A DNA stretch of 64,000 nt from a virus. Lineage: Duplodnaviria; Heunggongvirae; Uroviricota; Caudoviricetes. The stretch spans positions 1-64,000 of the IMG/VR virus record IMGVR_UViG_3300018080_004888; one strand, given 5' to 3'. Below are positions 4,095 through 35,731 of the stretch, piece by piece. The notes below the pieces were generated by a model, which saw only the letters and a program-made list of their open reading frames with translations, was not told the origin of the DNA and ran no database searches. How positions within the stretch are numbered: position 1 is the stretch's first letter; each line of letters opens with the position of its first letter. The position numbers and the translations under genes were made by a program.

Positions 4095-4575
4095 CTTCCT
4101 TTCTCGCTTGTAAAGCTACCCACCCCTTGACAATCATCCACCACACCAATCGGCAGGACCCCCACGCGATCTGCCACGCAATGGCAATGACGACGGCCAC
4201 CGCAAACGCAACCACCAGACCCAGCGCTGTCATCCATATCCAGAGAATTGGAGGCGTCCTGAAAATGTTGCAAGGCCCCCAAAAGACCTCATAACATGCA
4301 CAATTAAAACTGTTAGAGGCATCCCATATCCAGCAGAAATAAGCCGCGTAAGGCAGGACAATAAACACGAACACAAGCACCACGAACGCACAACAGTCGC
4401 ACGCTTGCTCTTCTTCGGCATTGAGCTTTTTCTCGTCATTTTTCATAAAGAGAAACTTCCGTGATATGTTTCCATTATTGGATAAGGATCTAGGACTATC
4501 GTAATCTGCTTGTTCTGTGTATTTCATTCTAATTTCAGCCTCGCATAATATTTCGACCCACCTTCTCCCATCCAC
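4087..4575 (-). CDS. Hypothetical membrane protein.
   Basis: ORF of 162 aa with several hydrophobic segments. Confidence 0.3.
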   Translation of the reverse strand: MDGRRWVEILCEAEIRMKYTEQADYDSPRSLSNNGNISRKFLFMKNDEKKLNAEEEQACDCCAFVVLVFVFIVLPYAAYFCWIWDASNSFNCACYEVFWGPCNIFRTPPILWIWMTALGLVVAFAVAVVIAIAWQIAWGSCRLVWWMIVKGWVALQARKEGE

Positions 4576-5630
4576 TTTGCTCGTCTTGTAAGACCGACTC
4601 TCATAGGCATGTATGAGTCAGGGTTAAGAACCACATACTCAGTAAATGGGATGTAAGGACAGTACAGATAACCCGCTTTATAGTACCAATCCTTCTTTTC
4701 CACATTTGGTCGTCCTCGGGAACCTATCAACAACTCATTTTTGGGATATAGCGGATCGACATAAACCTCCCACGCACTATTGAGCATACCGACCTGATGG
4801 ACCCCGAACGAACGAATATTCCAATCCAGATATCTCGCCCCATCCTTGATAAAATGAGCAATCTTGGGAGAGGTAACAATCCATAATCGAGCAAATAGTG
4901 TCCGGTCGTGGGGACTTACGAGAGTCTTCCTGTGAATGACGCTACTTACCTCGCATAGCTTGACATACAGCCCCTCATAATCTTTGGGAAATTTACAAGT
5001 TGTTATCGTTCCCGCATTGCACCTCAAATCCGTCATGATCTCGCGGGTGAAGTCGTCGGCAATATTGTATGGATTAGGATAATCGAAGAATTCCTTCATT
5101 CGAGTGGTATGGGCACATAACTCTTTTTCCTTACGGACAAATTCCAAAACAGGCATTTCCGTCTTCTTGCCCTCGGCCCATTCATAGGTGGTAGTGCCAA
5201 CAGGTTCTATTCGTTCATAAAGCATATGCTCCGCAGGTCTAGCCATCGTTTGCATACAAACCAAACGACTGCCGACAAAATTGGAGTAGACATCGAAGAG
5301 TAGTTCAAGCTGCTCTTTTATCGGTCGAGGTTTAGGATATGGATCTTTAACGCAATATTGCATAAGGCGTTGGTTGTCCATAAGCAACGCTACCTCAAGA
5401 GCATATTCTCTCTGCATTCTCGAAAAATCAAAATATTGACTGTATTTTTTGAGGGCTTCCTCCCGAAGTTCTATCCTCAGTCGGGCTCTGATTTCGTCAC
5501 TTAAATCCCTCTCGCCGTAAATCGCTGGAGGGTGTTTGAACTTCGGTTTCTCTTCCGAGAACATCCCTATCGGAAGCACCGCTGCGGCTCCCGCCGCAGC
5601 GGTGCCTTTTAGAAAATCTCTTCTATTCAT
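4524..5630 (-). CDS. Tat-signal secreted hypothetical protein (family member 1).
   Basis: MNRRDFLKGTAAAGAAAVLP N-terminus: twin-arginine motif followed by an Ala-rich hydrophobic region. The ORF-track start at 5666 is probably 12 codons too early. Confidence 0.6.
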   Translation of the reverse strand: MNRRDFLKGTAAAGAAAVLPIGMFSEEKPKFKHPPAIYGERDLSDEIRARLRIELREEALKKYSQYFDFSRMQREYALEVALLMDNQRLMQYCVKDPYPKPRPIKEQLELLFDVYSNFVGSRLVCMQTMARPAEHMLYERIEPVGTTTYEWAEGKKTEMPVLEFVRKEKELCAHTTRMKEFFDYPNPYNIADDFTREIMTDLRCNAGTITTCKFPKDYEGLYVKLCEVSSVIHRKTLVSPHDRTLFARLWIVTSPKIAHFIKDGARYLDWNIRSFGVHQVGMLNSAWEVYVDPLYPKNELLIGSRGRPNVEKKDWYYKAGYLYCPYIPFTEYVVLNPDSYMPMRVGLTRRAKWMGEGGSKYYARLKLE

Positions 5631-5631
5631 T

Positions 5632-6657
5632 TTAAGTCTCCCACTGTTCCACAATACACTTTTCAACCATATAATTACTGTAAATACCCTTGCTGGGATG
5701 TTTCATCATTCCCCAAAAAGATTGAACTAAGACGCAATAATCGCTTCTAGAGATCCATACACGGCCCCAACAACGGCCTTGTTCTATCCATCCCAATCCA
5801 CCACACGTTTCAATACGATTATGGGGAAAAGCATTTTCCCTGGTAATCCATGCCTCTGTTTCTTCAATCCCGGCCCCTCGATGAATTTTGTTCCCCAAGT
5901 CTTGGGCGGAAGCAAAAACTTCATCGGCATTCAAAACTTTGGGATGGTGAGTCGCTTCGCAAGCTGACCGGGGCCATCTCCAAGAGCAAGAGTTCGCTTG
6001 ACCAGTATCGAGATCGACAATGGGAAGACGTTCTTTACAAAGATGTTCGGCATCAATAGGAATGCGGGCATGTCTGTCGGAACAACCATGACACGAAAGA
6101 TCTAAAATTTGAGCAGTCTCTTCGACAACATCAACGAAGCAATCCGGTTTCGGTTTGTAATCCAAACAAAAACAAACGGTTCCTTTTCTACAAATAAAGT
6201 GGATGGCATCCACCAAACTAGGATCACCAGTACGAGCCGTAAGCAAATTTTGAGAGGCCCGTAGCTTGGCCCAATCATTGCCGAATTTCCTTTTTGCCAC
6301 TACTCCATCAGCATCAGCAGGAAAAGATTGGGGACCTTCGTAGACCCCATCAGCATACCAACCGGGAATTATGAAGAAATCATCAAGGGCAAGAGGATGA
6401 GCCCAAACTTCAACAATGCCGCCCAATTTCTTCGTTTGAGGAAGGAAGTAGTGATAAAATCTTTCCTTCTTTTCGCTCCATAAATGCTCACAGATTGTTC
6501 CGTCACGATAGTTCATGTACACCCAGAAGTTTCTTTTGGGATAAAACTCCTTCGGTGGCTTCGGCTTTCCCTGTTTGAATTCGGGAAGAATACTTAGGGG
6601 AAGCACCGCTGCGGCTCCCGCCGCAGCGGTGCCTTTCAAAAATTCTCTTCTATTCAT
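5632..6657 (-). CDS. Tat-signal secreted hypothetical protein (family member 2).
   Basis: MNRREFLKGTAAAGAAAVLPLSILPE N-terminus. ORF of 341 aa. Confidence 0.6.
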   Translation of the reverse strand: MNRREFLKGTAAAGAAAVLPLSILPEFKQGKPKPPKEFYPKRNFWVYMNYRDGTICEHLWSEKKERFYHYFLPQTKKLGGIVEVWAHPLALDDFFIIPGWYADGVYEGPQSFPADADGVVAKRKFGNDWAKLRASQNLLTARTGDPSLVDAIHFICRKGTVCFCLDYKPKPDCFVDVVEETAQILDLSCHGCSDRHARIPIDAEHLCKERLPIVDLDTGQANSCSWRWPRSACEATHHPKVLNADEVFASAQDLGNKIHRGAGIEETEAWITRENAFPHNRIETCGGLGWIEQGRCWGRVWISRSDYCVLVQSFWGMMKHPSKGIYSNYMVEKCIVEQWET

Positions 6658-6855
6658 ACTTCACCTCATCCAGCTTTTCGGGTAGATCGCCTCGTTCAGC
6701 CGCCCAGTCGGCATCAGCGAACTTCTTCTCAAAATCGAGCCCGGCTGCTTCTGCTAGGTCCTCAACTTCGACACGATGACCTTGTGTAACAAGCATACCG
6801 TCTTTGTATAGCCCTTCCCAGCAATCGTCGTTTACCAGCACGAATTTACTCATAA

Positions 6856-7620
6856 TTACACCCATTCGTAAAAAAGGACCATTTGGGGACGTACAGCCCC
6901 ATCACAATAGCCATTGGAGGACAACCCGCCGACAACCGGAATCATACCGAAGCAATAGAAGTAAAACGTATCGGGCTCGCCAATTCGTCCGAGGTTGTGC
7001 GACTCAAAGATCCAGTTTACGTCGTCCATGATATGGTCGGCAAGCTCGCCAACTTCTTCGGCTTCCTTATCAAGATTGTGACATTCTCCACGTCCCCAGG
7101 CTTGATATTGCATGAACAGTTCCCAAGAAGTTTTATTCCAGACTCCGTTGAACCTGTGTTTGGAACGCGGGACATAGAGCATCATCGGTGCTTTGGCATA
7201 AAAGCTGGAGCGGGTGGGCATTTGTTCCATCAGGCGAGGAACGAGCCTACGAATCAACGGGATGCTAATTCGCTTGAATTGGGCGATATTGCTTATACGA
7301 TATTCCGAACCTTGGTTCCAAACACGCTGATTCTCCAAAGCAAGAACAACCGTAGGTTTTTGTTCTTCGGGCAACTCTTTAAGAAGACCAGTTCTCTCCC
7401 ATTGCCTAATCAAATATGCTGCCCACTCTTCGTCTGTAGCCTGAGTGTTGGGGCGAACGTCTATCTGCTTTTTGACTTCCTCAAAGTTTTCCTTAGTCAA
7501 AAACCCTGGAAGTGAACTAGAAGCTTTTTCTATAGCTTCTTTTCCAGGTGAACTTGAAGCCAAAAGGGGCAGACTAGCTGCGGCGACGGTACTGCTTTTT
7601 AGAAATTCTCTTCTATCCAT
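6856..7620 (-). CDS. Tat-signal secreted hypothetical protein (family member 3).
   Basis: MDRREFLKSSTVAAASLPLLASS N-terminus. Confidence 0.55.
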   Translation of the reverse strand: MDRREFLKSSTVAAASLPLLASSSPGKEAIEKASSSLPGFLTKENFEEVKKQIDVRPNTQATDEEWAAYLIRQWERTGLLKELPEEQKPTVVLALENQRVWNQGSEYRISNIAQFKRISIPLIRRLVPRLMEQMPTRSSFYAKAPMMLYVPRSKHRFNGVWNKTSWELFMQYQAWGRGECHNLDKEAEEVGELADHIMDDVNWIFESHNLGRIGEPDTFYFYCFGMIPVVGGLSSNGYCDGAVRPQMVLFYEWV

Positions 7621-7894
7621 TAGAAACCCTCCTTATTGATAGATGGAGTGTACTTGTAGTTCCATATGTAAAGCTGTGTCCCATCCGTGAAAACGAAGAC
7701 GGTTCTATATCCCTCTCCTGTAGGTTCAATATAAATCTCTTCTATTGTTTTGCCTTTATACTCTGTGAGGACTGTGTTGTGAGTTTCTTTGTGTCCTTCA
7801 TGTCTTTGAGGCGAACAAACCAACAGCGTAATACCGATAATTGCGTTCATGATTAAAACAGCAAGGAAGAATGATGAAATTTCTATGAAGCGTT

Positions 7895-8362
7895 TCATTT
7901 TTTCACCTTATAGCTCATGGACCACCAATCATACCAAGTTCTGGTCCTGTAGAAGCCGCATTTTTCGTAAAACTCTTTCGCATTATACTCGAAAGCCGTG
8001 GCTACTGAAACCCGCGTTTTTCTCTGTCTCTTGGCTGCTCTGATAACTTCTCTGACCAGCTTTGTGCCGATTCCTTGTTGTCGGTTTGTGCGTCTGACGA
8101 CGAGGGCTTCGATATGAACGCTATCTTTTCTCGGGGTAAAGACAATGGCTCCGAGGACCTTCTTGCGTTCTACGACGACCTTGACTTTTTTGTTATTGAA
8201 TGCCGCGTAGATCGGGTCCATCGACCATAGATGCAGGCTGCGAAGAAGGCTTACAACCTTCTTGCGATGTTCTGGTCTTGCAGTAATGAGCTTCATCACT
8301 GTTAAGGTGGCTCCCAAGCAGGAAGTTTCTTGTATGATTCGGGAAGCACATCTACCAAACAT
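7895..8362 (-). CDS. GNAT-family N-acetyltransferase.
   Basis: GNAT core motif RRTNRQQGIGTKLV (Q/RxxGxG/A) and an ...EFYEKCGF C-terminus. Confidence 0.6.
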   Translation of the reverse strand: MFGRCASRIIQETSCLGATLTVMKLITARPEHRKKVVSLLRSLHLWSMDPIYAAFNNKKVKVVVERKKVLGAIVFTPRKDSVHIEALVVRRTNRQQGIGTKLVREVIRAAKRQRKTRVSVATAFEYNAKEFYEKCGFYRTRTWYDWWSMSYKVKK

Positions 8363-8409
8363 GAACTGATGGGCGAGCGACCACCGCTTAACGCGAAACC
8401 TTGAGTATT

Positions 8410-9006
8410 TTAATACTCCGAACTAGCGAAATAACCTTCGCCAAATTCTTCAACGAATTGTCGAACAGTGGCTTCAAAAGTCACCCCACCATCTTCATCA
8501 TACAGAGGAAATGTAGTATCCATGCTCATTTCTACCCAACCATCGCCCTCGATTTCGTCTTTGTAGATGGGGAAATAACCATGTCCAATTGCCGCTCGTC
8601 GTGCTGGAGGACATTCTACCCAGCCCCAAATTTCATCGTATTCTGATATCCATTTTCGATTGCGATGATGATACAAAAACGAAGCTTTCCGATAAACCTT
8701 GTCCCCATACATCATCTCAACCAAAATATTTTCGGCATCTTCCACCGATCTGGCAATGACGTAATCATATTGGTTGGTGAACATTTTGAGGGGCGGCTTA
8801 TGACGATCACAATAGATCATCTCGCCAGTTGATGAGTCTGGTTCACAACAGCACGGGGCACATTCAGGATGTTCGGCCCAATAGTCATCAATCATCACCC
8901 ACACATCTTTCGTCTTGCCGCGAATAGGATCGGCGGCAAGAGATATGGGAAGCATCGCTGCGGCTCCCGCCGCAGCGATGCCTTCTAAAAATTCACGTCT
9001 GTTCAT
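8410..9006 (-). CDS. Tat-signal secreted hypothetical protein (family member 4).
   Basis: MNRREFLEGIAAAGAAAMLPISLAA N-terminus. Confidence 0.55.
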   Translation of the reverse strand: MNRREFLEGIAAAGAAAMLPISLAADPIRGKTKDVWVMIDDYWAEHPECAPCCCEPDSSTGEMIYCDRHKPPLKMFTNQYDYVIARSVEDAENILVEMMYGDKVYRKASFLYHHRNRKWISEYDEIWGWVECPPARRAAIGHGYFPIYKDEIEGDGWVEMSMDTTFPLYDEDGGVTFEATVRQFVEEFGEGYFASSEY

Positions 9007-9595
9007 TTAAAAACTCCTCGCATTTTTCCATAAGATGTTGTCGTACCTCTGCCATCGCATCGCGGGGCAGGGCCTTCCCTGGATCGGGTAATTTCCTAAG
9101 TGCCCTGACTGCTTCGGGGAACCACCACTCGGTAGCCTTAAAAACTAGCTCTCCCTCCGGTGTTACGCCTACGTCTCTGAGTACCAGCATGTAACAACCA
9201 TCGTCTTGAATGATATGGGCAATGCCACCATACTCATCTTTCAACGTGGCGAGTGGACGGTGTTTGCTGGGCCTGCCCTGGGTAAAATAATAATCGTCGC
9301 TTATAAGCACATTGATCTCGTAATCGGGATAGGGCTGTAGAACGTAGCCCTTTTTATTCTCAGGCTCTTCGGTTGCCAAAGACATTAGGTGCCGATGTTT
9401 TTTGCAGTCTGGGCAAATGTAGCTTGGCAAGACCCACCTTCCGCCTCCAGGCCTCGGAAGTCGCTCATAGACTCCCGCATTTCCTGATCCGCAACTACAA
9501 TACTCGATACCGTCTTTTGCTTGGACAGTAGAGATAGGCACCGCTGCCGCTGCTCCAGCGGCAGCGGTGGTTTTGAAAAAGTCTCGTCTGTTCAT
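8993..9595 (-). CDS. Tat-signal secreted hypothetical protein (family member 5).
   Basis: MNRRDFFKTTAAAGAAAAVPISTVQA N-terminus. Confidence 0.55.
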   Translation of the reverse strand: MNRRDFFKTTAAAGAAAAVPISTVQAKDGIEYCSCGSGNAGVYERLPRPGGGRWVLPSYICPDCKKHRHLMSLATEEPENKKGYVLQPYPDYEINVLISDDYYFTQGRPSKHRPLATLKDEYGGIAHIIQDDGCYMLVLRDVGVTPEGELVFKATEWWFPEAVRALRKLPDPGKALPRDAMAEVRQHLMEKCEEFLNEQT

Positions 9596-10243
9596 TATTC
9601 ATACTCCCATTCTATTCCTAACAAGATGTTGGGTTTTTCTCTTTTCAATAGCTTTTTCGCTGTTTCCGGTCTGCCGCATTTTGGGCACCACCAAAATTCC
9701 TTGCCCGTGGTTTCGGCCACATGTTCCATTGTTGTGCGACAAGTTCTGCATTTTCTCATTCTCACTCCTCAATGAAATAGCAAACCTCGTTTCCGCAGGG
9801 ACTCTTTTCGCTGTTCCTCTTGATATTCCTCTAAAGTTACACCTTGATCCAGTAATACCTCGGGAACAGTTTTGAGTTCCTCTGATCTTCTTTTGAGGAT
9901 CTCATACATTTCTTCCCGACTAGGAACTCCTGGTTTGCGTTTCATCAACTTGTCCTCGGAACTTGGTTTCAAATTCATGCTCTGTCTCTGGAAACCCGGA
10001 AAAGAAATTGGGGTATCTTCGTTTAAGTTTGTTCATCCCATTTTAATCTCTTATGAAAAAACCGACAATACAAATACCACAAAGGGAGAAAAAGTACGGC
10101 AGCTATTCCACCAGTACAAAATCCTTGTGTGAGCGATGTATCCGTACAAATCAATGAGAATGCCCAATGACCGACCCAAATGCCCAAGGCAAAGAATATG
10201 CCATTGTACCACATGAATTTCGAGAATTTATAGGGGGGCTTCA

Positions 10244-11341
10244 TCAAAATTCATCCAACGGGTATAGATCCCAGGGCACGGATTTATCAATATTGTACAG
10301 CAAATGCTGATATTCATCAAAGCCAACATCGGAATAATTCAGGACGGGTTTTCCATCCATTTTGCCTTGGGCCATGAGGGAGGCTACCGCTGCTGCGGGG
10401 TAGGCGGTTCCAATTTGCATAGCGGTCCAGTTTTTGTCCGCTTTGATTTCGGTGCCGAGCAAATTGAAGAAATTCCAAGGGGACGAAACTTTGTATCTAA
10501 CGCATATCTTTATCAAATCATCTTTGATTGGAGGACAAGTATGACGAAGAATATCGCGAATTTCATTTTGTGGTAAATGCGTGTCTTCCAAAAGGAATTG
10601 GATGCAATCTCGGTGTCCTTTGTACCGTATGGTTCGATAGGCACAATTCTTGACTCCCTTGGCCTTGATAGCGTCTAACGTCAATCCACCTTTGGTGTAA
10701 AATGCCTCATAGTCTCCAAAATCCTCTAACCCCGTAAGGGTGTTAGCTTCCACAATCTTCCCATTTTCCAAAATTTCGCAATGGCCGCTGTATTCGTTAA
10801 TCAGTCCCTCTAGGCTGAAAACCAAGTTGTATTTCAGCTTACCTGTTGCGATATGCCTTTGGGGCAACCCGCCGACATAAAGGAAAAGGGATTCGATTTT
10901 CAAATCTCTTTCGAGAATATCTTCTGCGACGAAATTGATATGTCCAGGAGCCATACCCAAATCTGTAAACACTGGCTGATGGGTCTGCTTTTTGTCGGCA
11001 TAGAACTGTATCTCTTTAGAGATTTTGGGATTGCCGCCGAGATCGCAATATCTCACCCCATGATCTACACACATTGGACCAATGGTTAAATTGGCGACAT
11101 AAGGGGCTGCTGAAACGACAAGATCAACATCTTCTTCGAAAAGTTTTTCATCTACTTCTGTTGCGAACCAATCAGGAATCTCTTTTGACATCTCCAGGCC
11201 AACAGACTTCCATTGACTCCTGGCTCCCATCGCGGCCTTGCCATCCCTTTCGATTAAAATTAGATCGTGACCCAATTTATGTAAGGCATAGACAATAGCC
11301 CGCCCCATCCAACCGCATCCAACAACTGCTATTTTACCCAT
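10244..11341 (-). CDS. Saccharopine-dehydrogenase-like NAD(P)-binding oxidoreductase (possibly carboxynorspermidine dehydrogenase-like).
   Basis: N-terminal Rossmann motif KIAVVGCGWMGRAIV. Length of 365 aa is typical of the Sacchrp_dh family. Confidence 0.5.
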   Translation of the reverse strand: MGKIAVVGCGWMGRAIVYALHKLGHDLILIERDGKAAMGARSQWKSVGLEMSKEIPDWFATEVDEKLFEEDVDLVVSAAPYVANLTIGPMCVDHGVRYCDLGGNPKISKEIQFYADKKQTHQPVFTDLGMAPGHINFVAEDILERDLKIESLFLYVGGLPQRHIATGKLKYNLVFSLEGLINEYSGHCEILENGKIVEANTLTGLEDFGDYEAFYTKGGLTLDAIKAKGVKNCAYRTIRYKGHRDCIQFLLEDTHLPQNEIRDILRHTCPPIKDDLIKICVRYKVSSPWNFFNLLGTEIKADKNWTAMQIGTAYPAAAVASLMAQGKMDGKPVLNYSDVGFDEYQHLLYNIDKSVPWDLYPLDEF

Positions 11342-12532: not shown

Positions 12533-12548
12533 ATATCTGAGAGGTTCT

Positions 12549-15742: not shown

Positions 15743-15791
15743 TTTCCTGTCTTATAGTAGTTAGTTTCGCTCACAAAATGATAACTATAGT

Positions 15792-17755: not shown

Positions 17756-18211
17756 TTAGTTATTCTCATGCCTAAACCAAGAAAATTGCGATTTACGACC
17801 AAGCTCAAGCCGATTCGATTTGGTCATGGGTTGTATTTGCCCAATGTAGGAAACAGGACGGAATTCTGGCCCTTGTGCGACTTCGACATATGCGACTTCA
17901 ACATAACACAATCCCCAAAACGCTCCCCTATATGCATAGGGAAAGAACCCTATCACGTAGTCCTCTCGATTCAGCCAAGCCTCGTAGACTTTAGGCATAA
18001 TGTCATCATCAAAAATGAGGTCATTCTGCACGATCTCTTCAATATTTTCTAGCTGTCCATTCTCGTCAAATCGAATGACAGGAACTCCATCGGGCGGTTC
18101 TGTTAGAACGGGCTCTCCTATATCGCTTAATTCCGACTCAGGACGAGGAAATGACGCACCGGCAAGCAAGGGAGCAGCGGCCATACCCCCAAGGAATTCG
18201 CGTCGATCCAT
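17756..18211 (-). CDS. Tat-signal secreted hypothetical protein (family member 6).
   Basis: MDRREFLGGMAAAPLLAGA N-terminus. Confidence 0.5.
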   Translation of the reverse strand: MDRREFLGGMAAAPLLAGASFPRPESELSDIGEPVLTEPPDGVPVIRFDENGQLENIEEIVQNDLIFDDDIMPKVYEAWLNREDYVIGFFPYAYRGAFWGLCYVEVAYVEVAQGPEFRPVSYIGQIQPMTKSNRLELGRKSQFSWFRHENN

Positions 18212-19911: not shown

Positions 19912-20220
19912 TTACTTTAGAGCAAGTCTGAAAACGTTGCCCTTCCCATCATTAAACTCAAACTCGCCACCAGCTTGCAACATAAAGGTAACCCGTTCCC
20001 TCACATTTCCAATCGAGAACTTTTCTCCGTCACCAAACTGAAAATAAAGCTCAGGATCTTCACTGGACTCGCGTACAGGCTCGGCCTTTAGGGTCGTGCC
20101 GGTATTGTGGATAATTGCCTTGCTGGTTGTCCAGTACGGATTACCTGTCGCTTTTGTTGGCAGAAGAGCCGCTGCGGCGGGAACCGCCGCAGCGGCTCCT
20201 ATAAATTCTCTTCGGTTCAT
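19912..20220 (-). CDS. Tat-signal secreted hypothetical protein (family member 7).
   Basis: MNRREFIGAAAAVPAAAALLP N-terminus. Confidence 0.5.
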   Translation of the reverse strand: MNRREFIGAAAAVPAAAALLPTKATGNPYWTTSKAIIHNTGTTLKAEPVRESSEDPELYFQFGDGEKFSIGNVRERVTFMLQAGGEFEFNDGKGNVFRLALK

Positions 20221-20645
20221 TAGACTAACTCCCTATACTCAGATAACATCTCCTCGCCATAATCGTGGAGATAGTGATGAATAAGTTCAACGCTTCTTTG
20301 GCGACCTGGAAATGGGATGCTCATCCGCACTTTCCTCTTTGACATAACCATCGCTGTGTGGGCGGTCACGCATCCCGAAAAGACCTGGGGCGGGTTGGGG
20401 AAACGACCGATCTTCGTTTCGTTCTCTATCAATTCCTCAAAGGCTATTTGCCAACCCTCTTCCAAGTAATCTTCGAAGTCTTCCCAATGATCTGGGTCGA
20501 GATGCCCTCGACTATAGTCAAAGCATTCATCCCTAAATTCTTCGAACTCATCCATAATTTCTTGAGGCTTCCTGTCCTTCAAAAACGCGTCGGGGAAAAA
20601 GAGGGCGGCAATAGCGGCACCAAGAAACTCTCTTCGTTTGGTCAT
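20220..20645 (-). CDS. Tat-signal hypothetical protein (family member 8).
   Basis: MTKRREFLGAAIAALFFP N-terminus. Confidence 0.45.
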   Translation of the reverse strand: MTKRREFLGAAIAALFFPDAFLKDRKPQEIMDEFEEFRDECFDYSRGHLDPDHWEDFEDYLEEGWQIAFEELIENETKIGRFPNPPQVFSGCVTAHTAMVMSKRKVRMSIPFPGRQRSVELIHHYLHDYGEEMLSEYRELV

Positions 20646-29119: not shown

Positions 29120-30376
29120 ATGGCAATGCTGGAGGATGCCAAAAAGCAGCTTGAGGCAGCTTATCAGTATGCGGATATAGACCCTGAAAGCTGGGAAAGG
29201 CTTCAATTTCCACAAAAAACGCTCCAAGTTTCCATCCCAATGCGTCATGATGATGGAACTCTGAAAATCTACAAAGCATACCGCTGTCAATATGACTCTA
29301 CTCTCGGCCCCACCAAAGGCGGCATCCGATATCATCCCAACGTGGGTCGCGACGAAATCGAGGCACTTGCGTTTTGGATGACTTTCAAGAATGCAGCAAT
29401 CAAGGTTCCTTTTGGGGGAGCTAAGGGAGGAGTGTGTGTCAATGCAAGGGATCTATCCCACAGAGAACTAGAGCGTCTAGCTAAAGCCTACACAGCCGCC
29501 TTCGTAGACTTCATCGGCCCTGACGAAGATATCCCCGCTCCCGATGTCGGAACGGGGGAAAGGGTAATGGGATGGATGTTCTCAGAATACCGAAAAATCA
29601 AAGGTGGGCATCCGCGAGATATAGTGACCGGAAAGCCGGTTGCATTGGGCGGCATCCCAGGCAGAAAATCGGCCACCGGATATGGCGGCTACTATGTCTT
29701 AGACTACCTTTTAAGAAACCATGCTTGGCAATTTAAGATCCCAGGCAAACAAGAAATAACAGTAGCCATTCAAGGATTCGGGCAGGTTGGATACTGGTTT
29801 GCTGAGGCTCTTTATCGTCATGGATTTACGGTAGTTGGCTTGACCAATGAATACGGGGGAACCTATGATCCAAAGGGACTTAATATTCCTGCTTGCCGCC
29901 ACGCTTTAGATCAAAGCGATAGTAAAGAATGGGGACACGGAAGTGAAATTACGAACGATGAACTTCTGGCACTCGATGTGGATATTCTGGTCCCAGCAGC
30001 TATTGAAAATGTCATCACCGAAAAGAACGCTGACGATATTAAAGCCAAAATGATATTTGAGCTAGCCAATGGGCCTCTTACAAATGCCGCCGATGCAATT
30101 CTCCAAGAAAAAGCCGTAATCGTTCCAGATATTCTCGCCAATGCCGGTGGTGTCGTAGTCTCGTATTTCGAATGGCTCCAGAATAGAACCGCCCAATACC
30201 GATCCGAGGAAGAAGTTGAAAAACAACTGCGAGAAAAGATGGAATACGCAACCAGTCGCGTCATGGTGCGACATCTGGAGCATAGTATCTCTTTGAGAAC
30301 CGCTGCGTATGTGTTGGCCCTCAAACGGATTAGCGAAGCAAACGAGAGTCTAGGGAATAAGAGTTATTTCGCATAA
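29120..30376 (+). CDS. gdhA: NAD(P)-dependent glutamate dehydrogenase.
   Basis: GGIRYHPNV and KVPFGGAKGG catalytic and Gly-rich motifs, plus a GFGQVGYW Rossmann motif. 418 aa. Confidence 0.9.
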   Translation: MAMLEDAKKQLEAAYQYADIDPESWERLQFPQKTLQVSIPMRHDDGTLKIYKAYRCQYDSTLGPTKGGIRYHPNVGRDEIEALAFWMTFKNAAIKVPFGGAKGGVCVNARDLSHRELERLAKAYTAAFVDFIGPDEDIPAPDVGTGERVMGWMFSEYRKIKGGHPRDIVTGKPVALGGIPGRKSATGYGGYYVLDYLLRNHAWQFKIPGKQEITVAIQGFGQVGYWFAEALYRHGFTVVGLTNEYGGTYDPKGLNIPACRHALDQSDSKEWGHGSEITNDELLALDVDILVPAAIENVITEKNADDIKAKMIFELANGPLTNAADAILQEKAVIVPDILANAGGVVVSYFEWLQNRTAQYRSEEEVEKQLREKMEYATSRVMVRHLEHSISLRTAAYVLALKRISEANESLGNKSYFA

Positions 30377-31025
30377 TGTACAACGTTTCTTCGGCCCATG
30401 CATGGCAAGCACGATGGCACCAACTTGGAGGGTGTATTTCCGTAATTATAGCATCTGTCGCGAATGCCTCTCGGTATTGAAATGATCCTTTGTAATGCGG
30501 GTAATAAAAAGTGTTGTCCGGTGTTGTCATTGAGAACGACCCCGGCAAGATTTTTACACGATGAAACCAATTCGTATTGCAACGAGGCCCAGTCTCCTCT
30601 TTGTAGCCATAACTCACCCAAGTGTTATAGAAAATCAGGTCATGTTCTTCTCGATTGTACCACCAATCGAGCAAGCAATTTGCTGTTGCGGCCCTCTTCA
30701 TTCCCTGATGTTCGGGCAGCTTCCATTCTATATTCATGATCTTATTGGAACTAGGGAAAGGGCCTCCATAGCCACAAGCGATCCAACCATATCCAAGAAC
30801 ATAAAATCCACTATAAAATCCTTTAGGATCATGTGGGTAAAGCCACTCGGGCGGCCTTGGAATATAAATTTTGGGCCTATATCCTGGCGGATTGTCATGC
30901 CACGGCCCCGGCCACGGTTTTTTCTCTGGAATTTGAGGTTCCTCGGGCAAAATCGATAGAGGAAGCACCGCTGCGGCTCCCGCCGCAGCGGTGCTTTTTA
31001 AGAATTCACGTCTATTCATTTTCAT
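30330..31025 (-). CDS. Tat-signal secreted hypothetical protein (family member 9).
   Basis: MKMNRREFLKSTAAAGAAAVLPLSILPE N-terminus. Confidence 0.55.
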   Translation of the reverse strand: MKMNRREFLKSTAAAGAAAVLPLSILPEEPQIPEKKPWPGPWHDNPPGYRPKIYIPRPPEWLYPHDPKGFYSGFYVLGYGWIACGYGGPFPSSNKIMNIEWKLPEHQGMKRAATANCLLDWWYNREEHDLIFYNTWVSYGYKEETGPRCNTNWFHRVKILPGSFSMTTPDNTFYYPHYKGSFQYREAFATDAIITEIHPPSWCHRACHAWAEETLYIMRNNSYSLDSRLLR

Positions 31026-31524
31026 AGCTCCTCATATCATCCACCATGACTTTAGGAACAGCCCAGTTATCTGGGACATAAAGTTGGGATTGATAGTTCT
31101 TTCTAGGCTTCGGCCAATGAGAGGGCCTGAATCCTCGGGCCGCAAACAAGAGAATCGCTGCGTGTCGTATGGTGCAAATTTCCGCATAGAGAGGGCCATA
31201 TTTGAAAGGCTCTTTTTTAATGACCTCATCCTCTGGCTGTACGGATGTGAGTATATTTTGTTCTTTGCCCTCCCAACAACGGTATCGGTGGCCGTTTGCG
31301 AATTGTCCCACTACGCACACATCAAACATATCGGGACTTGTGGAATTATTCTCAAACCAAACAAGGAGATCGTTGCACCCATCCCAGCATCCTGGGGCTG
31401 TTTCTTTGCCATATAGGAAGATCCAAACCTTGGGAGCAGATTTAGTTTCCGGCAAAATCGAGATGGGAAGCATTGCAGCCGCTCCAACGGCAGCACTAGT
31501 CTTCAAAAATTCTCTTCGGTCCAT
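31012..31524 (-). CDS. Tat-signal secreted hypothetical protein (family member 10).
   Basis: MDRREFLKTSAAVGAAAMLPISILPE N-terminus. Confidence 0.55.
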   Translation of the reverse strand: MDRREFLKTSAAVGAAAMLPISILPETKSAPKVWIFLYGKETAPGCWDGCNDLLVWFENNSTSPDMFDVCVVGQFANGHRYRCWEGKEQNILTSVQPEDEVIKKEPFKYGPLYAEICTIRHAAILLFAARGFRPSHWPKPRKNYQSQLYVPDNWAVPKVMVDDMRSYENE

Positions 31525-32263: not shown

Positions 32264-32953
32264 TCATTCGGGATACACGCTCTTTCCGATCAGAATTTCG
32301 TCGGGACCGCAAGCCTCAAAGCACTTGAACATCGCATCTTCGCGAGCTATAGGGTATTTCTCCATACCATCAAGCCACAAAGGATTTCTTCCATCGAAAG
32401 TACACTCCCTCAGATCTTTAATGTGTTGATCGTAGTGCCCTTGCGACCGATTGCCCCTCGCCCTGAAATAGCCAAGAGCCAAGAACTCAGCGATCCAGAA
32501 ATGATCCTCCGCTTCTTCCATAGTAATGTGAGGATCTTCACACCAAGACACATACGGCTCCCCAGGCAGAAAATAGCGACGACCAGAAGTGCTAATACCA
32601 GGGGTAGTAGGATCTTCCCAAATTTGGTATTTGTAGTGACCCAACGGTTGTCCAGGAAAACCCATGAACGACACAATGATCGAAGCAGTATAATAGTCTG
32701 CGTGGGGAGTATAGTTTTTAGCAGGGTAACCAGTTCCATAACCCTGCCTAGTACGCTCAAATCGAACTTCGTAAATGTTGTGGGCTATGGTGAATTTCTG
32801 CCTTTGGAGCCATCGCGAATTAGCGGCCCCATCGAATCGTTCGCCCCGAGCCATCTTATCGTACCTGATCGGTTCGGACTTTAGAATCGATAGGGGAAGC
32901 ACCGCTGCGGCTCCCGCCGCAGCGGTGCCTTTTAGAAAATCTCTTCTATTCAT
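32264..32953 (-). CDS. Tat-signal secreted hypothetical protein (family member 11).
   Basis: MNRRDFLKGTAAAGAAAVLPLSIL N-terminus. Shares an ARGNRSxxHY motif with 33785..34330. Confidence 0.55.
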   Translation of the reverse strand: MNRRDFLKGTAAAGAAAVLPLSILKSEPIRYDKMARGERFDGAANSRWLQRQKFTIAHNIYEVRFERTRQGYGTGYPAKNYTPHADYYTASIIVSFMGFPGQPLGHYKYQIWEDPTTPGISTSGRRYFLPGEPYVSWCEDPHITMEEAEDHFWIAEFLALGYFRARGNRSQGHYDQHIKDLRECTFDGRNPLWLDGMEKYPIAREDAMFKCFEACGPDEILIGKSVYPE

Positions 32954-33777
32954 GTCTTCGCTAGCTCCTTGTTAATGGTAAATCCGCCGAAATAGTTGAT
33001 CTTAACACTTTGTTCTGAGGGAGAGATGTAAATAGAGCCATCAACATAAAGTGTGATCCTCATCTCTCCCCAAACATGGCAGCCATCGCGAATGATTGCA
33101 TCTTGAGATTTGAGAATTGCGCGAGATCTTTTGGCGACACCCCAACCACAGTGAGCCTCCTCCCATTCAACCCCATCGAAAATCTCTTTGGCATTCTTGA
33201 TGGTGAAAAAATCTGGTTTGTCTTCGCACGGCACCAACTTGATTATTGGAAGTCCAGAACCATTCCACTGTCGGGTGAAAGATGATTGATCGTAGAAAGT
33301 CAGGCGAATGTTATTGCCATTTGGGTCAGGATAATATCCACAACCTAGTGGATCAGGATAATATCCACAAGCTCTTTTCACCTCTTTGACTTTTGCTTCC
33401 TCGATCCTCTGTCCCGTAGATTCCACCGGATCGAAATAGATCATTCCACTATAACATAGACTCAAGCGAAGCTCTCCCCAAATGACCCTTACCGGATAGA
33501 AACCACCAGGACCACCATTGAAAACAGCATCACATTCATTGACCCAAGCATGAGCAAACTTAAACCCTCCCTCCCAATCAGCGTTAGCGAAAATCTCCTT
33601 GGCATTAAGGACAGGGGGCATTTGTCGAAAAGCACCCGCCATCTTAATATTCTTAGGCTCCCCGAACTGAACGACGGGGAAATTGTTGGGATTCTCGACT
33701 TTGTTCGGTAAGATGGCAACCGCCGCAAGCGGAGCGGCGGCGGTTGCTCCTAAAAATTCACGTCGTTTCATTTTCAA
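32950..33777 (-). CDS. Tat-signal secreted hypothetical protein (family member 12) with an internal duplicated domain.
   Basis: MKMKRREFLGATAAAPLAAVAILPN N-terminus. Two NAKEIF...W...GE(L/M)R(L/I)(S/T)LY repeats. Confidence 0.5.
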   Translation of the reverse strand: MKMKRREFLGATAAAPLAAVAILPNKVENPNNFPVVQFGEPKNIKMAGAFRQMPPVLNAKEIFANADWEGGFKFAHAWVNECDAVFNGGPGGFYPVRVIWGELRLSLCYSGMIYFDPVESTGQRIEEAKVKEVKRACGYYPDPLGCGYYPDPNGNNIRLTFYDQSSFTRQWNGSGLPIIKLVPCEDKPDFFTIKNAKEIFDGVEWEEAHCGWGVAKRSRAILKSQDAIIRDGCHVWGEMRITLYVDGSIYISPSEQSVKINYFGGFTINKELAKT

Positions 33778-33784: not shown

Positions 33785-34330
33785 TCACGACAAGCTCCAA
33801 AATCTCCTCAAATGACCTCTAGACCAATTTTTGGGAGCGTGAAGCTGCGATTTTCTTGGTTTGTTGTCTTTTCTCATTATCAACTCATAGTGTTCGTTAG
33901 ACCTGTTGCCTCTCGCCCAGAATAAATAGTAAGCCAATTCCCAAGCAGTGTCTTGCTCCATCGATATGTCACGTTCCGCTGAGATTTGATAGTAGTGCGG
34001 AGTTCTCATGCCGCCAACCGCGTAATCGTCTTCGTGCCCCTCCCAGATTTCATAAACGTGCCCACTCTCAAACTTCACCACGACGGACGGCCCGCAATAG
34101 TATTTGTCGGGCTTTCCGACCCACGCTTCCAACATTTTAACTTCCTTGTGCCGACTAAAATGTTTGGGACCATAGCCGAAGCCCCAGATCACCCTCCTGG
34201 GCCATCGCTGGATCTGTTCGGGAGCGAAAGGCGACGACCGAACTTGTTTTTGCGGCATTTGAGGAATGCCGCCAACCGCAACAACAGGCAACGCGGCGGC
34301 AGTTGCTTTTAGAAAATCTCTTCTATTCAT
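33785..34330 (-). CDS. Tat-signal secreted hypothetical protein (family member 13).
   Basis: MNRRDFLKATAAALPVVAVGG N-terminus. Confidence 0.5.
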   Translation of the reverse strand: MNRRDFLKATAAALPVVAVGGIPQMPQKQVRSSPFAPEQIQRWPRRVIWGFGYGPKHFSRHKEVKMLEAWVGKPDKYYCGPSVVVKFESGHVYEIWEGHEDDYAVGGMRTPHYYQISAERDISMEQDTAWELAYYLFWARGNRSNEHYELIMRKDNKPRKSQLHAPKNWSRGHLRRFWSLS

Positions 34331-34852
34331 TTTCTAGTTCCCCGTAGCAAGTCGAATACGGCCATTTCCGTTGATTTCGTCTCCATTCTTCTTATAGAAT
34401 TCCGCCGTTTCGTCATTGAATTCGCAGATCAAGGTGCCGTAGTAGATTTCCCCCTTAACCTCCTTAATGGAACCAAAGGTCATTGTCGCACCCCTCTCTT
34501 CGCCTTGGTGCCAAACGACGGCCATGCCAACTGAAAACGGCTCTGTGGTTAAATCGGGCATCAACTTCCCTCCTGAATACGCATGTGTAGTATTGCTGCG
34601 TAACCGATAGCACTTTCGATCTTACGCAATGCGGCATCTAGTTCGCCAACATCTGCAAGATCTTCCGCCTCACGAAGTCTGACATCGACATGGCACTCAC
34701 GAACATGACGAATGTCCGCATCAGGCGGGCGATTACGACAATGTTCAGAATGGCTGTGTTGGATGCCGTGGTATTTCTGATCTCCTCTTTGAAATGCTTT
34801 TTCGAGCATTGGGAGTATGTTTTCGCGAACATACTGCATTTTGTCGGTGTAA

Positions 34853-35731
34853 TTATGTTTCATCGTATTTCAACTCCGGGTTATAGGCCATCCAAGAACC
34901 GAGTCCTTCAAAATAATAGCTTTCTGGTGTCGGGTGAAGATAAATTTTCCCGATATTTGAGAGAATTAGCCGTATTTTGCCCCAACAAAGTCTATTGCCT
35001 ATAGGAATAGCATCTTGTTTTCTAACATACGCATATGTCTTTTTCTCGCCAGAAAAACCGACTCCCATTCCTTCGTACAAGTATTTTCTGAAAGGAGATA
35101 TATGCCACGGACATCCTTCAAAAATTTCCTTGCCATTTTCAATTCTTGGGTGCTTCTTTCCACGTCGCTCAAACCTCACAACAGGAAGATTCTCAGGATT
35201 TAGCCCACAGCGATATTGGGGCCAGTCATCTTCTTCGTCGGGAGCAGCGGCTCCAGCGGTCATGGCTTTCATGCTTCGCCAAATAACCTCCTTGGCATAA
35301 GTTTTGAACCCAATGCCATCAAAGGGCCGCAGTTCTCCAATAAGCTTATCGCTATTCCTTTTCCAAAACTCGGCGGCATAGAGCAGCCGATTCTCCAGGT
35401 TTTCCCGCACCTTTTTTTGCAACTCTTGAGTCCCCTCGAAGTTATAAATAGTCCACTCACCCATTTTGCCCCACAGGGGCTTCTCAGGATCGATGAGTGC
35501 CCCTTTGACGTAATATTTCCCGGTCATATCGTAGACGCGCATGATTTTCCACGTCGCATAATGTATGAGCTTTTCGTATTCGGTCAGCAACCACCCAACC
35601 TCTTTAGGGGTGAGCGAGTCAAGGGCCTTGGCCCCTATCACAGGATCAACCTCTTTCGCCAATCCTTGCCCTAAAGGAATTCCCGCTAGCGGCAATGCGG
35701 CACCGGCTTTCAAAAAGTCACGACGATCCAT
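34853..35731 (-). CDS. Tat-signal secreted hypothetical protein (family member 14).
   Basis: MDRRDFLKAGAALPLAGIPLG N-terminus. The C-terminal NGKEIFEGCPWH...RLCWGKIRLIL domain is paralogous to repeats in 32950..33777. Confidence 0.5.
   Translation of the reverse strand: MDRRDFLKAGAALPLAGIPLGQGLAKEVDPVIGAKALDSLTPKEVGWLLTEYEKLIHYATWKIMRVYDMTGKYYVKGALIDPEKPLWGKMGEWTIYNFEGTQELQKKVRENLENRLLYAAEFWKRNSDKLIGELRPFDGIGFKTYAKEVIWRSMKAMTAGAAAPDEEDDWPQYRCGLNPENLPVVRFERRGKKHPRIENGKEIFEGCPWHISPFRKYLYEGMGVGFSGEKKTYAYVRKQDAIPIGNRLCWGKIRLILSNIGKIYLHPTPESYYFEGLGSWMAYNPELKYDET

What the first reader, a model, noticed from the sequence alone, without database searches (positions are those of the whole stretch)
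4524..35731. At least 14 tandem Tat-signal paralogs whose signal-peptide coding region carries a maintained DNA/RNA palindrome
Fourteen minus-strand genes begin with near-identical twin-arginine signals (MNRREFLKGTAAAGAAAVLP...). In most copies the Ala-rich h-region is encoded by a 12-15-bp perfect palindrome, for example CACCGCTGCGGC-TCCC-GCCGCAGCGGTG at 5577..5604. Divergent copies keep the palindrome through compensatory changes that also alter the flanking amino acids: CATCGCTGCGG...CCGCAGCGATG encodes I...M in place of T...V. Other copies use different palindromes: CACCGCTGCCGCT...AGCGGCAGCGGTG, GAGCCGCTGCGGCGG-GAA-CCGCCGCAGCGGCTC and CAACCGCCGC...GCGGCGGTTG. This points to selection on nucleic-acid structure inside the signal sequence. 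Possible reasons are translational pausing for Tat targeting, an RNA regulatory hairpin, or a recombination site that lets 5' ends be swapped among diversifying secreted-protein genes.
Basis: seen in the sequence. Interest (0 to 1): 0.7.

Follow-up and report, generated by a model that had tools for sequence, protein, structure and literature searches.

The report
Conserved hairpin inside phage Tat-like leaders
A large phage puts the same Tat-type leader on 14 mostly unrelated proteins, and in eight of them the leader's alanine codons are chosen to form a perfect 11-15 bp stem-loop that evolution has held fixed, so a nucleic-acid signal is hidden inside a signal peptide.

Summary
Fourteen minus-strand genes start with a Tat-type leader. 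Eight carry a perfect 11-15 bp inverted repeat in codons 8-19, 21-26 nt after the ATG.

They are not tandem paralogs. The window is an accessory region of a large phage with 17 tRNAs. The mature domains are mostly unrelated: lineage-restricted proteins plus two derived from the gp23 capsid protein. Only the leader is shared.

The palindrome is not an alanine-codon artefact. In 211 bacterial Tat signals with the same RRxF...AAAGAAA motif, the longest stems average 5.7 bp, the same as a wobble-permuted null.

It is not recent gene conversion either. Among eight gp23-like orthologues (39-67% amino-acid identity to the window copy), codon identity at invariant residues is 97.5% in the stem and 47% in the mature domain. 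Leader codons on both sides of the stem vary synonymously.

Seven stem pairs show changes on both sides. Two of the three variant loops differ from the main one by only one or two bases.

I conclude that a stem-loop is under selection. It probably acts in the mRNA, but its function is unproven. The leader is also a recombination joint, with two clear junctions and one ambiguous one. Six leaders lack the hairpin.

The parts
4524..5630 (-). Leader gene g7: Tat-type leader on a gp23-like major-capsid-protein homologue (368 aa).
   Evidence: Pfam Gp23 E=5.8e-15 and TAT_signal 34.3 bits. PHROG major head protein. PDB profile hits to T4 gp23.
5576..5605 (-). Main-type stem-loop: 13 bp perfect arms GCACCGCUGCGGC, loop GGGA. 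It extends to 15 pairs through a G.U pair and an A-U pair.
   Evidence: MFE -34.6 kcal/mol, z = -5.97.
5632..6657 (-). Leader gene g8 (341 aa, no known family), with the main-type stem-loop at 6603-6632.
6856..7620 (-). Leader gene g10 (254 aa). Its mature part resembles the N-terminal piece of gp23-type capsid proteins. No hairpin.
   Evidence: blastp against P0017 gives E=3e-12. Fold z = +0.64.
8410..9006 (-). Leader gene g13, with the I...M compensatory stem-loop at 8952-8981 (GCAUCGCUGCGGC / GCCGCAGCGAUGC).
   Evidence: z = -6.78. The pair C:G became U:A.
8993..9595 (-). Leader gene g14, with a 14 bp stem-loop at 9539-9569 (loop GAG).
   Evidence: z = -6.33.
17756..18211 (-). Leader gene g29, no significant hairpin.
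   Evidence: p = 0.76 against synonymous resampling.
19912..20220 (-). Leader gene g34 (AAAAVPAAAA type), with a 15 bp perfect stem at 20166-20198. The stem reaches 17 pairs with a G.U and an A-U pair; loop UUC.
   Evidence: MFE -36.7 kcal/mol, z = -7.40.
20220..20645 (-). Leader gene g35, no hairpin.
   Evidence: p = 0.88.
30330..31019 (-). Leader gene g47, with a 15 bp perfect stem-loop at 30963-30996. From the hairpin to near the stop codon the gene is about 100% identical to one in a distantly related phage.
31012..31524 (-). Leader gene g48, with a decayed hairpin at about 31468-31500. Two pairs are compensated (G:C to C:G, C:G to U:A), and there are two mismatches.
   Evidence: z = -1.18. 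p = 0.34.
32264..32953 (-). Leader gene g51, with the main-type stem-loop at 32899-32928. The mature domain belongs to a family restricted to this phage group.
   Evidence: Only 6 homologues among 5.8 billion proteins.
32950..33771 (-). Leader gene g52, with a different 11 bp stem at 33716-33747 (GCAACCGCCGC / GCGGCGGUUGC, 10-nt loop).
   Evidence: z = -4.78. Only p = 0.04 against synonymous resampling.
33785..34330 (-). Leader gene g53, no significant hairpin.
   Evidence: p = 0.58.
34853..35731 (-). Leader gene g56, no significant hairpin.
   Evidence: p = 0.79.

Best explanation
What it is. The window is an accessory region of a large phage. Fourteen genes share a portable leader of about 26 codons with the sequence of a twin-arginine (Tat) signal peptide: MNRR[DE]FLK-GTAAAGAAAVL-P.... 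The leader is fused to mostly unrelated mature domains. In the common form, codons 8-19 are encoded so that every base that can pair does pair. The result is a stem of 13-17 bp with a 3-4 nt loop, starting 21-26 nt after the ATG.

Shown.
- The stem is far longer than alanine codons produce on their own.
- Its synonymous sites are frozen across paralogs and across phages whose other synonymous sites are largely randomised.
- The flanking leader codons do vary, and the loop varies a little.
- Most changes in the stem occur on both sides and keep the pair.
- The amino-acid swap T...V to I...M shows the peptide tolerates change as long as pairing is kept.

Inferred.
- The element works in the sense-strand mRNA. 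The base of the stem alternates between G.U and A-U. The main loop GGGA fits the GNRA class on the sense strand only. The position is fixed relative to the start codon.
- It sits downstream of the stretch I take, from general knowledge, to be covered by an initiating ribosome (roughly +13 to +19). It should therefore not block initiation.
- It would lock the GC-rich alanine codons into a local fold, keeping them away from the AU-rich initiation region. It could also slow the first rounds of elongation or act as a barrier to mRNA decay, setting the output of genes that carry this leader.

Side consequence, shown. The leader DNA is where mature domains are exchanged or deleted by homologous recombination, and the frozen hairpin is its longest invariant stretch.

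Confidence. About 0.85 that a nucleic-acid stem-loop is under selection; about 0.5 that it acts at the mRNA level. The score given is for the full statement.
For: Not an alanine-codon artefact.
- In 211 distinct non-phage Tat signals matching RR[DE]F...AAAGAAA, the longest perfect inverted repeat averages 5.67 bp. The wobble-permuted null gives 5.64 bp. The maximum is 12 bp.
- The four phage peptide types tested each reach the longest perfect stem seen in 100,000 resamplings; that length occurs in only 0.06-0.24% of them.

Site-specific constraint.
- Among 23 distinct leaders, codons 9-19 are nearly invariant: GGC 20/20, ACC 21/21, GCT 22/23, CTT 19/20.
- In the same leaders, codons 2-8 and 20-28 use 2-5 synonymous codons each.
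- In eight gp23-like orthologues, pairwise codon identity at invariant residues is 97.5% in the hairpin (10 columns), 47% in the mature domain (47 columns), 69% in the n-region and 37.5% in the c-region.
- Nine of 10 hairpin columns use a single codon, against 2 of 47 mature columns (Fisher p = 6e-8).

Covariation.
- Three pairs in alignment A5 and four in A6 change on both sides. They include the transversions G:C to U:A and G:C to C:G. Overall 92-96% of cells are paired.
- Loops are GGGA, UGGG, GGUA, GAG and UUC.

RNA signature.
- Pair 25-56 is G.U in 16 sequences and A-U in 2.
- Pair 24-57 is A-U in 14, G.U in 3 and A.C in 1.

Stability. MFE is -26 to -37 kcal/mol, with z from -4.8 to -7.4.

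Precedent. A stem-loop in the fdnG Tat signal-coding region modulates translation (Punginelli et al. 2004, as summarised in PMC7137448).

Recombination.
- Window g47 and L005:5568 share no similarity upstream, 79% in the n-region, and about 100% from the hairpin onward.
- L006:309 is a chimera of two L005 leaders with 1.85 kb deleted between them.
Against: - No expression data exist, so the RNA-level role is inference.
- Six of 14 leader genes lack a significant hairpin. The element is therefore not required for every leader gene.
- Distinct variants are few: 13 hairpin sequences in the two covariation alignments, all descended from one ancestor. Covariation rests on about 7 pairs, and shuffle controls are only moderately exceeded for some measures.
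- Synonymous-resampling MFE p-values per type are only 0.001-0.01, because the null already folds at -16 to -21 kcal/mol.
- If any stable hairpin were enough, single mismatches in a 15 bp GC stem should be nearly neutral. Yet stems are almost always perfect. That fits a sequence-specific partner or a DNA-level process better than a simple thermodynamic role.
- All internal pairs are Watson-Crick, so the G.U evidence comes only from the two outermost pairs.
Confidence: 0.5

Rival explanations
1. DNA-level hairpin that promotes or targets recombination. The palindrome folds in single-stranded or supercoiled DNA. It stalls replication or is cut, so that leaders become in-frame crossover points where mature domains are swapped, duplicated or deleted. 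This would resemble integron attC sites or the PeSL cassettes of T4-type phages.
For: - Three strain or phage comparisons place recombination junctions in the leader.
- One junction interval (from codon 9 to about +85) contains the hairpin.
- The mature domains are fast-evolving and restricted to this phage group.
- Gene order of leader genes differs between related phages.
- Stems are perfect Watson-Crick, as expected for a DNA palindrome.
- PeSL cassettes with stem-loops mediate the same kind of shuffling in T4-type phages (PMC2839356).
Against: - One mapped junction lies 10-17 nt 3' of the stem rather than in it. A third comparison is ambiguous, between about -38 and +72.
- Any 60-90 nt repeat would recombine without being a palindrome.
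- No recombinase or integrase was recognised among the window proteins that were scanned (about 50 of 105 ORFs).
- Selection for evolvability is normally too weak to freeze 11 codons.
- The G.U pair and the conserved outer A-U pair are not explained by a DNA hairpin.
Confidence: 0.2
2. No function. One ancestral AAAGAAA leader happened to be palindromic. It spread by duplication and recombination. It is kept perfect by templated (quasi-palindrome) mutation or very short gene conversion.
For: - Alanine codons are inherently self-complementary. The null MFE is -16 to -21 kcal/mol, and sliding the pairing register by 3 columns still leaves 53-72% of cells paired.
- All hairpin types share the core CGCUGC...GCAGCG and so have a common origin.
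- Transversion double changes have no wobble intermediate and are easily produced by template switching. This last point rests on my own knowledge of T4 quasi-palindrome mutagenesis.
Against: - Templated correction keeps the arms complementary but does not stop the palindrome from drifting. Observed codon identity is 97.5% in the stem against 47% in the mature domain of the same orthologues.
- The frozen block ends exactly at the stem boundaries. Codons 8 and 20 already vary. Conversion tracts would need to be about 34 nt long and always in register.
- Bacterial leaders with the same peptide show no such trend.
Confidence: 0.12
3. Transcription signal. The hairpin is an intrinsic terminator or pause site, acting either on antisense (plus-strand) transcripts entering these genes or as a sense-strand attenuator relieved by a closely following ribosome.
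For: - The phage's own terminators have the same long perfect stem with a 3-6 nt loop (222-253, 37864-37894, 45435-45464, 47047-47079, 52677-52709).
- On the plus strand the leader hairpins are followed by CTTTTAG, GTTTTG or TTTTTAAG.
- Codons L7 and K8 are enriched for a third-position A (NTA 16/20, AAA 19/21) beyond the general 5' codon bias.
Against: - No leader hairpin meets the T-tract criterion on either strand. True terminators here have 5-8 T.
- There are no plus-strand genes upstream of the 4.5-9.6 kb cluster that would need terminating.
- The sense-strand tail CUUCCUCUA is a poor U-tract.
Confidence: 0.08
4. The shared N-terminus is not an export signal. It is a capsid-targeting or propeptide sequence, like the T4 CTS, that brings cargo proteins into the prohead. 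This concerns the peptide, not the hairpin.
For: - The leader sits on a complete gp23-like protein, on a gp23 N-terminal fragment and on a gp23 C-terminal fragment.
- Mature domains are diverse and fast-evolving, like T4 internal proteins (PMC3012670).
- Many leaders end in L-P-E, L-S-E or F-S-E. These resemble prohead-protease sites, which I recall as L/I-x-E from my own knowledge.
- The main type lacks an AxA signal-peptidase site.
Against: - The match to the Tat motif is canonical. Pfam TAT_signal reaches or exceeds its cut-off in 7 of the 14 leaders.
- Some leaders do end in typical peptidase sites (VQA|K, TKA|T, SLA|A).
- Apart from the gp23-like genes, none of the window ORFs scanned, and no called gene in the relatives, was recognised as a head or tail gene; the neighbours with matches are glycosyl-, methyl- and sulfotransferases and metabolic genes.
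Confidence: 0.15

Closest known systems
mRNA stem-loop in the Tat signal-coding region of E. coli fdnG (Punginelli et al. 2004, J Bacteriol 186:6311; summarised in PMC7137448)
   Same: Both are stable RNA secondary structures formed by codons of a twin-arginine signal peptide. For fdnG the structure is reported to modulate translation by up to 60-fold.
   Different: - By my recollection of the paper, which was not held in the library, the fdnG stem-loop spans the first ~17 codons, including the RR codons and the initiation region.
- The phage stem starts at +21 to +26, outside the initiation region.
- The phage stem is a perfect 13-17 bp helix, is repeated on many unrelated genes, and is conserved with covariation across phages.
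PeSL (promoter-early stem-loop) cassettes of T4-type phages (Arbiol et al. 2010, PMC2839356)
   Same: Both are short conserved repeats containing a stem-loop. Both are scattered among lineage-restricted genes in variable regions of a T4-related phage. Recombination between copies deletes, inserts or replaces genes; the L006 versus L005 deletion is the same kind of event.
   Different: PeSLs are intergenic and carry a promoter and a working terminator. The phage leader is translated and in frame, has no promoter or T-tract, and joins protein domains rather than whole genes.
Capsid targeting sequence (CTS) of T4 internal proteins (Rao and Black 2010, PMC3012670)
   Same: Both are conserved N-terminal peptides on an otherwise highly diverse, fast-evolving set of phage proteins.
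   Different: The T4 CTS has no Tat motif, and no embedded hairpin has been described for it. Packaging of the present proteins is untested, and the genes are not in a head module.
Integron attC sites
   Same: Both are repeated palindromes in which structure, as well as sequence, is conserved, located at boundaries of exchangeable gene cassettes.
   Different: attC sites are non-coding, imperfect palindromes with extrahelical bases, and are used by an integron integrase. Here the stems are perfect, coding and at the 5' end of the gene, and no integrase was found.

Membership tests
Twin-arginine (Tat) signal peptide | n-region motif S/T-R-R-x-F-L-K | tested here: met
   Pfam PF10518 reaches or exceeds its 22.7-bit cut-off in g7, g8, g14, g47, g48, g51 and g34. 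g13, g53 and g56 fall just below, g10 is weaker (16.5 bits), and g29, g35 and g52 have no hit. All 14 have RR[DE]F[LI].
Twin-arginine (Tat) signal peptide | Weakly hydrophobic h-region of about 12-20 residues | tested here: met
   GTAAAGAAAVLPLSIL and its variants can be read directly from the translations.
Twin-arginine (Tat) signal peptide | c-region ending in an AxA-type signal-peptidase site | tested here: inconclusive
   The main type ends ...LSILPE, with no small residues at -3/-1. Some copies end VQA|K, TKA|T or SLA|A.
Twin-arginine (Tat) signal peptide | Export that depends on the Tat translocase | not testable with these tools
   The host is unknown and no experiment is possible. A TatA-looking small ORF (18491-18706) had no Pfam match.
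Regulatory mRNA stem-loop in a signal-peptide coding region (fdnG type) | Stable stem-loop within the first ~20 codons | tested here: met
   MFE -26 to -37 kcal/mol, z from -4.8 to -7.4. RNAalifold consensus of 15 pairs.
Regulatory mRNA stem-loop in a signal-peptide coding region (fdnG type) | The structure overlaps the start codon or initiation region | tested here: not met
   The stem occupies +24 to +57. No conserved pairing with codons 1-7 was found.
Regulatory mRNA stem-loop in a signal-peptide coding region (fdnG type) | A measured effect on translation | not testable with these tools
   Requires reporter assays.
Intrinsic (Rho-independent) terminator | GC-rich hairpin directly followed by a T-tract | tested here: not met
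   No leader hairpin was reported on either strand in 4000-10000. The tails have only 2-5 T.
PeSL-type shuffling cassette | Conserved repeat next to variable lineage-restricted genes, with recombination between copies seen in related genomes | tested here: met
   Chimeric leader and 1.85 kb deletion in L006 versus L005. Transfer of g47 with its 5' junction in the leader.
PeSL-type shuffling cassette | Intergenic unit carrying a sigma-70 promoter and a terminator | tested here: not met
   The element lies inside the reading frame, and no promoter or terminator match falls on it.
T4-type capsid targeting sequence | Shared N-terminal peptide on diverse proteins | tested here: met
   Similarity between the 14 proteins is mostly limited to residues 1-35.
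T4-type capsid targeting sequence | Ends at a prohead-protease site, and the protein is packaged in the head | tested here: inconclusive
   LPE, LSE or FSE follow many leaders but not all. No prohead protease or head module was recognised among the window ORFs scanned. Packaging cannot be tested here.
Described RNA families (Rfam 15) | Match at the family gathering score | tested here: not met
   Only tRNAs and two group I introns were found in the window.

The most novel reading that the evidence does not exclude
The leader and its hairpin form an in-frame, structure-defined cassette junction. A phage-borne system would use a folded palindrome inside a signal-peptide coding region as the crossover site. 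Exported or packaged effector domains could then be swapped between genes and between co-infecting phages without losing the reading frame. That would be a coding-sequence analogue of integron attC sites. Attaching the same leader to capsid-protein derivatives would mean the phage sends capsid-fold proteins to a new destination.
Probability: 0.12. Interest if true: 0.85.

Novelty: new variant of a known kind. Interest (0 to 1): 0.62.

Why it matters
- **Overlapping codes.** Signal peptides are normally read as protein signals with fast-drifting sequences. Here the most conserved part of the leader is conserved because of its nucleotides. The invariant peptide TAAAGAAAV is partly a shadow of an RNA or DNA helix. 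This is a clean natural example of overlapping codes, and it warns against inferring peptide constraint from conservation alone.
- **Phage genome evolution.** A translated, portable 5' module is shown to be the joint at which a phage group exchanges and deletes accessory protein domains.
- **An open question.** Why do capsid-protein derivatives carry a canonical Tat motif? This can be tested directly by proteomics or export assays.

Tried and rejected
- **Leader-only protein search.** A profile of 15 leaders returned only 3 weak hits. I could not list all proteins that carry the leader.
- **Structure prediction of g51.** A 7-sequence alignment gave pLDDT 55, too poor for a fold search, so none was run.
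- **PHROG scans.** Of the 10 leader proteins scanned (g29, g34, g35 and g48 were not), only g7 matched. Of 20 other window proteins, only a few transferases and one family of unknown function matched.
- **TatA idea.** The small ORF 18491-18706 has no Pfam match.
- **Extended structure.** RNAalifold on 18 leaders found only the 15-pair hairpin. There is no conserved pairing between the n- and c-regions or with the start codon.
- **Terminator reading.** It fails the T-tract test.
- **Known RNA family.** No Rfam match.
- **General Tat-signal property.** Rejected with 211 control signals.
- **Whole-leader gene conversion.** Rejected by the codon table.
- **Hairpins in non-alanine leaders.** 33771 and L135:3107 reach only p = 0.04, and nine others are not significant. 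I do not claim independently evolved hairpins.
- **Isolated phages.** None carries the leader-bearing gp23-like gene. IMG/VR holds only three contigs of this phage group.

Full report
**What is in the window**

The 64 kb window has 46% G+C. It carries 17 tRNA genes, 16 of them in one array at 47.1-52.2 kb, and two group I introns. It is packed with small ORFs, mostly on the minus strand.

Recognisable genes are auxiliary ones:
- glutamate dehydrogenase
- a saccharopine-dehydrogenase-like protein
- ThiF
- APS kinase
- an SPFH protein
- a GNAT acetyltransferase
- methyltransferases and sulfotransferases

The only structural homologues are gp23-type capsid proteins. Their nearest relatives lie on metagenomic phage contigs of 200-670 kb. 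I read the window as an accessory region of a large T4-related phage. This is an inference from gene content.

**The observation**

Fourteen minus-strand genes begin with MNRR[DE]FLK followed by an alanine-rich stretch. Pfam's TAT_signal model reaches or exceeds its cut-off in 7 of them and falls just below it in three more.

Eight of the 14 genes carry a perfect inverted repeat of 11-15 bp. Gene 31524 has a decayed version. Five have nothing significant.

Of the 17 short-range inverted repeats found in 33 kb, eight are these.

**They are not tandem paralogs**

All-against-all BLAST shows that similarity is mostly confined to the first 25-35 residues. The mature parts fall into several groups:
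- **Two gp23 derivatives.** g7 has the whole fold (Pfam Gp23 E=5.8e-15; PHROG major head protein; T4 gp23 in the PDB). g10 has the N-terminal 'LENQ...FKRISIPL' piece (E=3e-12 against a 476-aa capsid protein).
- **A small family** made of g13, g48, g51 and g53. The member searched, g51, has only six relatives among 5.8 billion proteins.
- **A g52/g56 pair.**
- **Several singletons.**

The genes sit in three clusters. In related phages the gp23-like gene is flanked by glycosyltransferase, RNA ligase, RlaP and GH57 genes, not by a head module.

**Is the palindrome only an alanine-codon effect?**

(GCN)n is complementary to itself one base out of frame, so some pairing comes for free. I scanned metagenomes and 185,579 species genomes for a fully degenerate pattern encoding RR[DE]F-x4-AAAGAAA.
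- The 211 distinct non-phage hits have a mean longest perfect inverted repeat of 5.67 bp.
- After permuting their wobble bases the mean is 5.64 bp.
- The maximum is 12 bp, and none reaches 13 bp.

With this phage's codon usage, a perfect stem as long as the observed one arises in 0.24% of random synonymous encodings for the main type, 0.08% for the 9595 type, 0.06% for the 20220 type and 0.20% for the I...M type. In each of these four cases the observed stem is the longest seen in the 100,000 resamplings of that peptide.

By free energy the signal is weaker (z about -3 to -4). The null already folds at -16 to -21 kcal/mol.

**Is it only recent gene conversion?**

No. I collected related loci through the gp23-like protein and through the degenerate DNA pattern. 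They include at least six phage lineages whose gp23-like proteins are 39-67% identical to the window copy over the alignment.

- **Across 23 distinct AAAGAAA-type leaders.** Codons 9-19 are almost invariant at the nucleotide level: GGC 20/20, ACC 21/21, GCT 22/23, GCG 22/23, GGA 22/23, GCC 22/23, GCA 22/23, GTG 18/18, CTT 19/20. In the same sequences, codons 2-8 and 20-28 use two to five synonymous codons each.
- **Across the eight gp23-like orthologues.** Pairwise codon identity at invariant amino acids is shown below.

| Region | Codon identity | Columns |
|---|---|---|
| Hairpin | 97.5% | 10 |
| Mature domain | 47% | 47 |
| n-region | 69% | 3 |
| c-region | 37.5% | 2 |

Nine of 10 hairpin columns use a single codon, against 2 of 47 mature columns (Fisher p = 6e-8). 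The frozen block ends at the stem boundaries. Whole-leader conversion or recent common origin cannot produce that pattern.

**Covariation**

Variants are few, but they behave as a helix should.
- The T...V to I...M change is C:G to U:A. It occurs on two different mature domains (window 9006 and L135:3649).
- Window 20220 and L135:2226 differ by a synonymous double change, GCG...GCC to GCU...GCA.
- Window 9595 and L008:194 differ by U:A against G:C.
- The decayed 31524 copy still shows G:C to C:G and C:G to U:A.

On two gap-free alignments, 95.8% and 91.8% of cells are paired. Three and four pairs respectively change on both sides.

Loops differ: GGGA, UGGG, GGUA (a Gly to Val change), GAG and UUC.

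Broken copies exist. L012 has one mismatch. L261:599 has a 3-nt deletion. L101:2814 has lost its left arm. The constraint is therefore strong but not absolute.

**RNA or DNA?**

This step is inferred. Several points favour the sense-strand RNA:
- The helix continues beyond the 13 Watson-Crick pairs through a G.U pair (16 sequences, A-U in 2) to an A-U pair (14 sequences, G.U in 3, A.C in 1).
- The wobble base of Leu19, which forms that outer pair, is T in 17 of 18 sequences. The next codon varies freely.
- The main loop GGGA, closed by C-G, fits the GNRA class on the sense strand only (my own knowledge of RNA tetraloops).
- The element keeps a fixed distance from the ATG (+21 to +26). From general knowledge, that is downstream of the stretch covered by an initiating ribosome.

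The near-perfection of the stems argues the other way. It suggests a sequence-specific partner or a DNA-level process rather than simple thermodynamic stability.

Negative results:
- RNAalifold finds no conserved pairing with the initiation region.
- The hairpins are not terminators on either strand. The phage's real terminators share the long-perfect-stem style.
- Rfam has no match.

**Recombination**

- **Transfer of g47.** Window g47 and L005:5568 are about 100% identical from the hairpin to about 25 nt before the stop. The n-region is 79% identical and the upstream DNA is unrelated. The two phages' gp23-like proteins share only 40% identity.
- **Deletion in L006.** L006 is a strain 99.8% identical to L005. 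It has a chimeric leader that joins the 5' part of L005:4378 to the 3' part of L005:6232, with 1.85 kb deleted. The crossover lies 10-17 nt 3' of the stem.
- **Window against L089.** These are 98% identical through the leader and diverge abruptly after codon 24. The position of this junction is ambiguous.

The leader is therefore a working recombination joint. The junctions are not pinned to the palindrome, and any repeat of this length would recombine.

**Best reading**

A stem-loop embedded in a portable Tat-type leader is under purifying selection; I put about 0.85 on this. It probably acts in the mRNA to set translation or transcript fate for the genes that carry it; about 0.5.

The nearest precedent is the fdnG stem-loop in a Tat signal-coding region. 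That one covers the initiation region, and this one does not.

Rivals are:
- a DNA-level recombination site (0.2)
- a self-perpetuating, functionless palindrome (0.12)
- a transcription signal (0.08)

A separate open question is whether the leader exports proteins or targets them to the capsid. The Tat motif is canonical, but the main type lacks a peptidase site and sits on capsid-protein derivatives.

**Limits**

- All hairpin types descend from one ancestor.
- Only 13 distinct hairpin sequences entered the covariation counts.
- There are no expression data.
- The host is unknown.

Noticed in passing
window 47129-52167 (-) and 22620-22693 (-): Sixteen tRNA genes form one array, with a further tRNA-Gly elsewhere. 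Two of them are unusually long (Asn 90 nt, His 87 nt).
   Followed up: no
window 51879-52066 and 52871-53069 (-): Rfam reports two group I introns at 67 and 65 bits, inside or next to the tRNA array. The adjacent ORF 53098-53607 has a LAGLIDADG-looking motif but no PHROG match.
   Followed up: partly
window 222-253, 37864-37894, 45435-45464, 47047-47079, 52677-52709: These intergenic hairpins have perfect 13-15 bp stems, 3-6 nt loops and real T-tracts, so they are probably the phage's intrinsic terminators. They share the style of the leader hairpins but have a different sequence.
   Followed up: partly
window 30330-31019 vs L005:5568-6230: One leader gene is about 100% identical in nucleotides between two phages whose gp23-like proteins share only 40% identity. 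This points to recent lateral transfer of a single gene.
   Followed up: yes
window 4524-5630, 6856-7620; L135:3649-4017: The leader is fused to a whole gp23-like capsid fold, to a gp23 N-terminal fragment, and in a relative to a gp23 C-terminal 58-residue fragment. Why capsid-protein pieces carry a Tat motif is unexplained.
   Followed up: partly
window 29120-30376 (+), 10244-11341 (-), 59174-59812 (-), 39684-40325 (-), 11690-16496: The window is rich in auxiliary metabolic and modification genes: glutamate dehydrogenase, a saccharopine-dehydrogenase-like protein, APS kinase, ThiF, and several methyl- and sulfotransferases.
   Followed up: no
L261:268-606 and L262:565-903: In a related phage, a small ORF with a SEC-C motif (PF02810) lies directly upstream of two leader genes.
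   Followed up: no
L005:4378-4626: An 82-aa ORF consists of an intact leader and hairpin fused to what looks like out-of-context sequence. It may be a remnant of a leader-mediated rearrangement.
   Followed up: no
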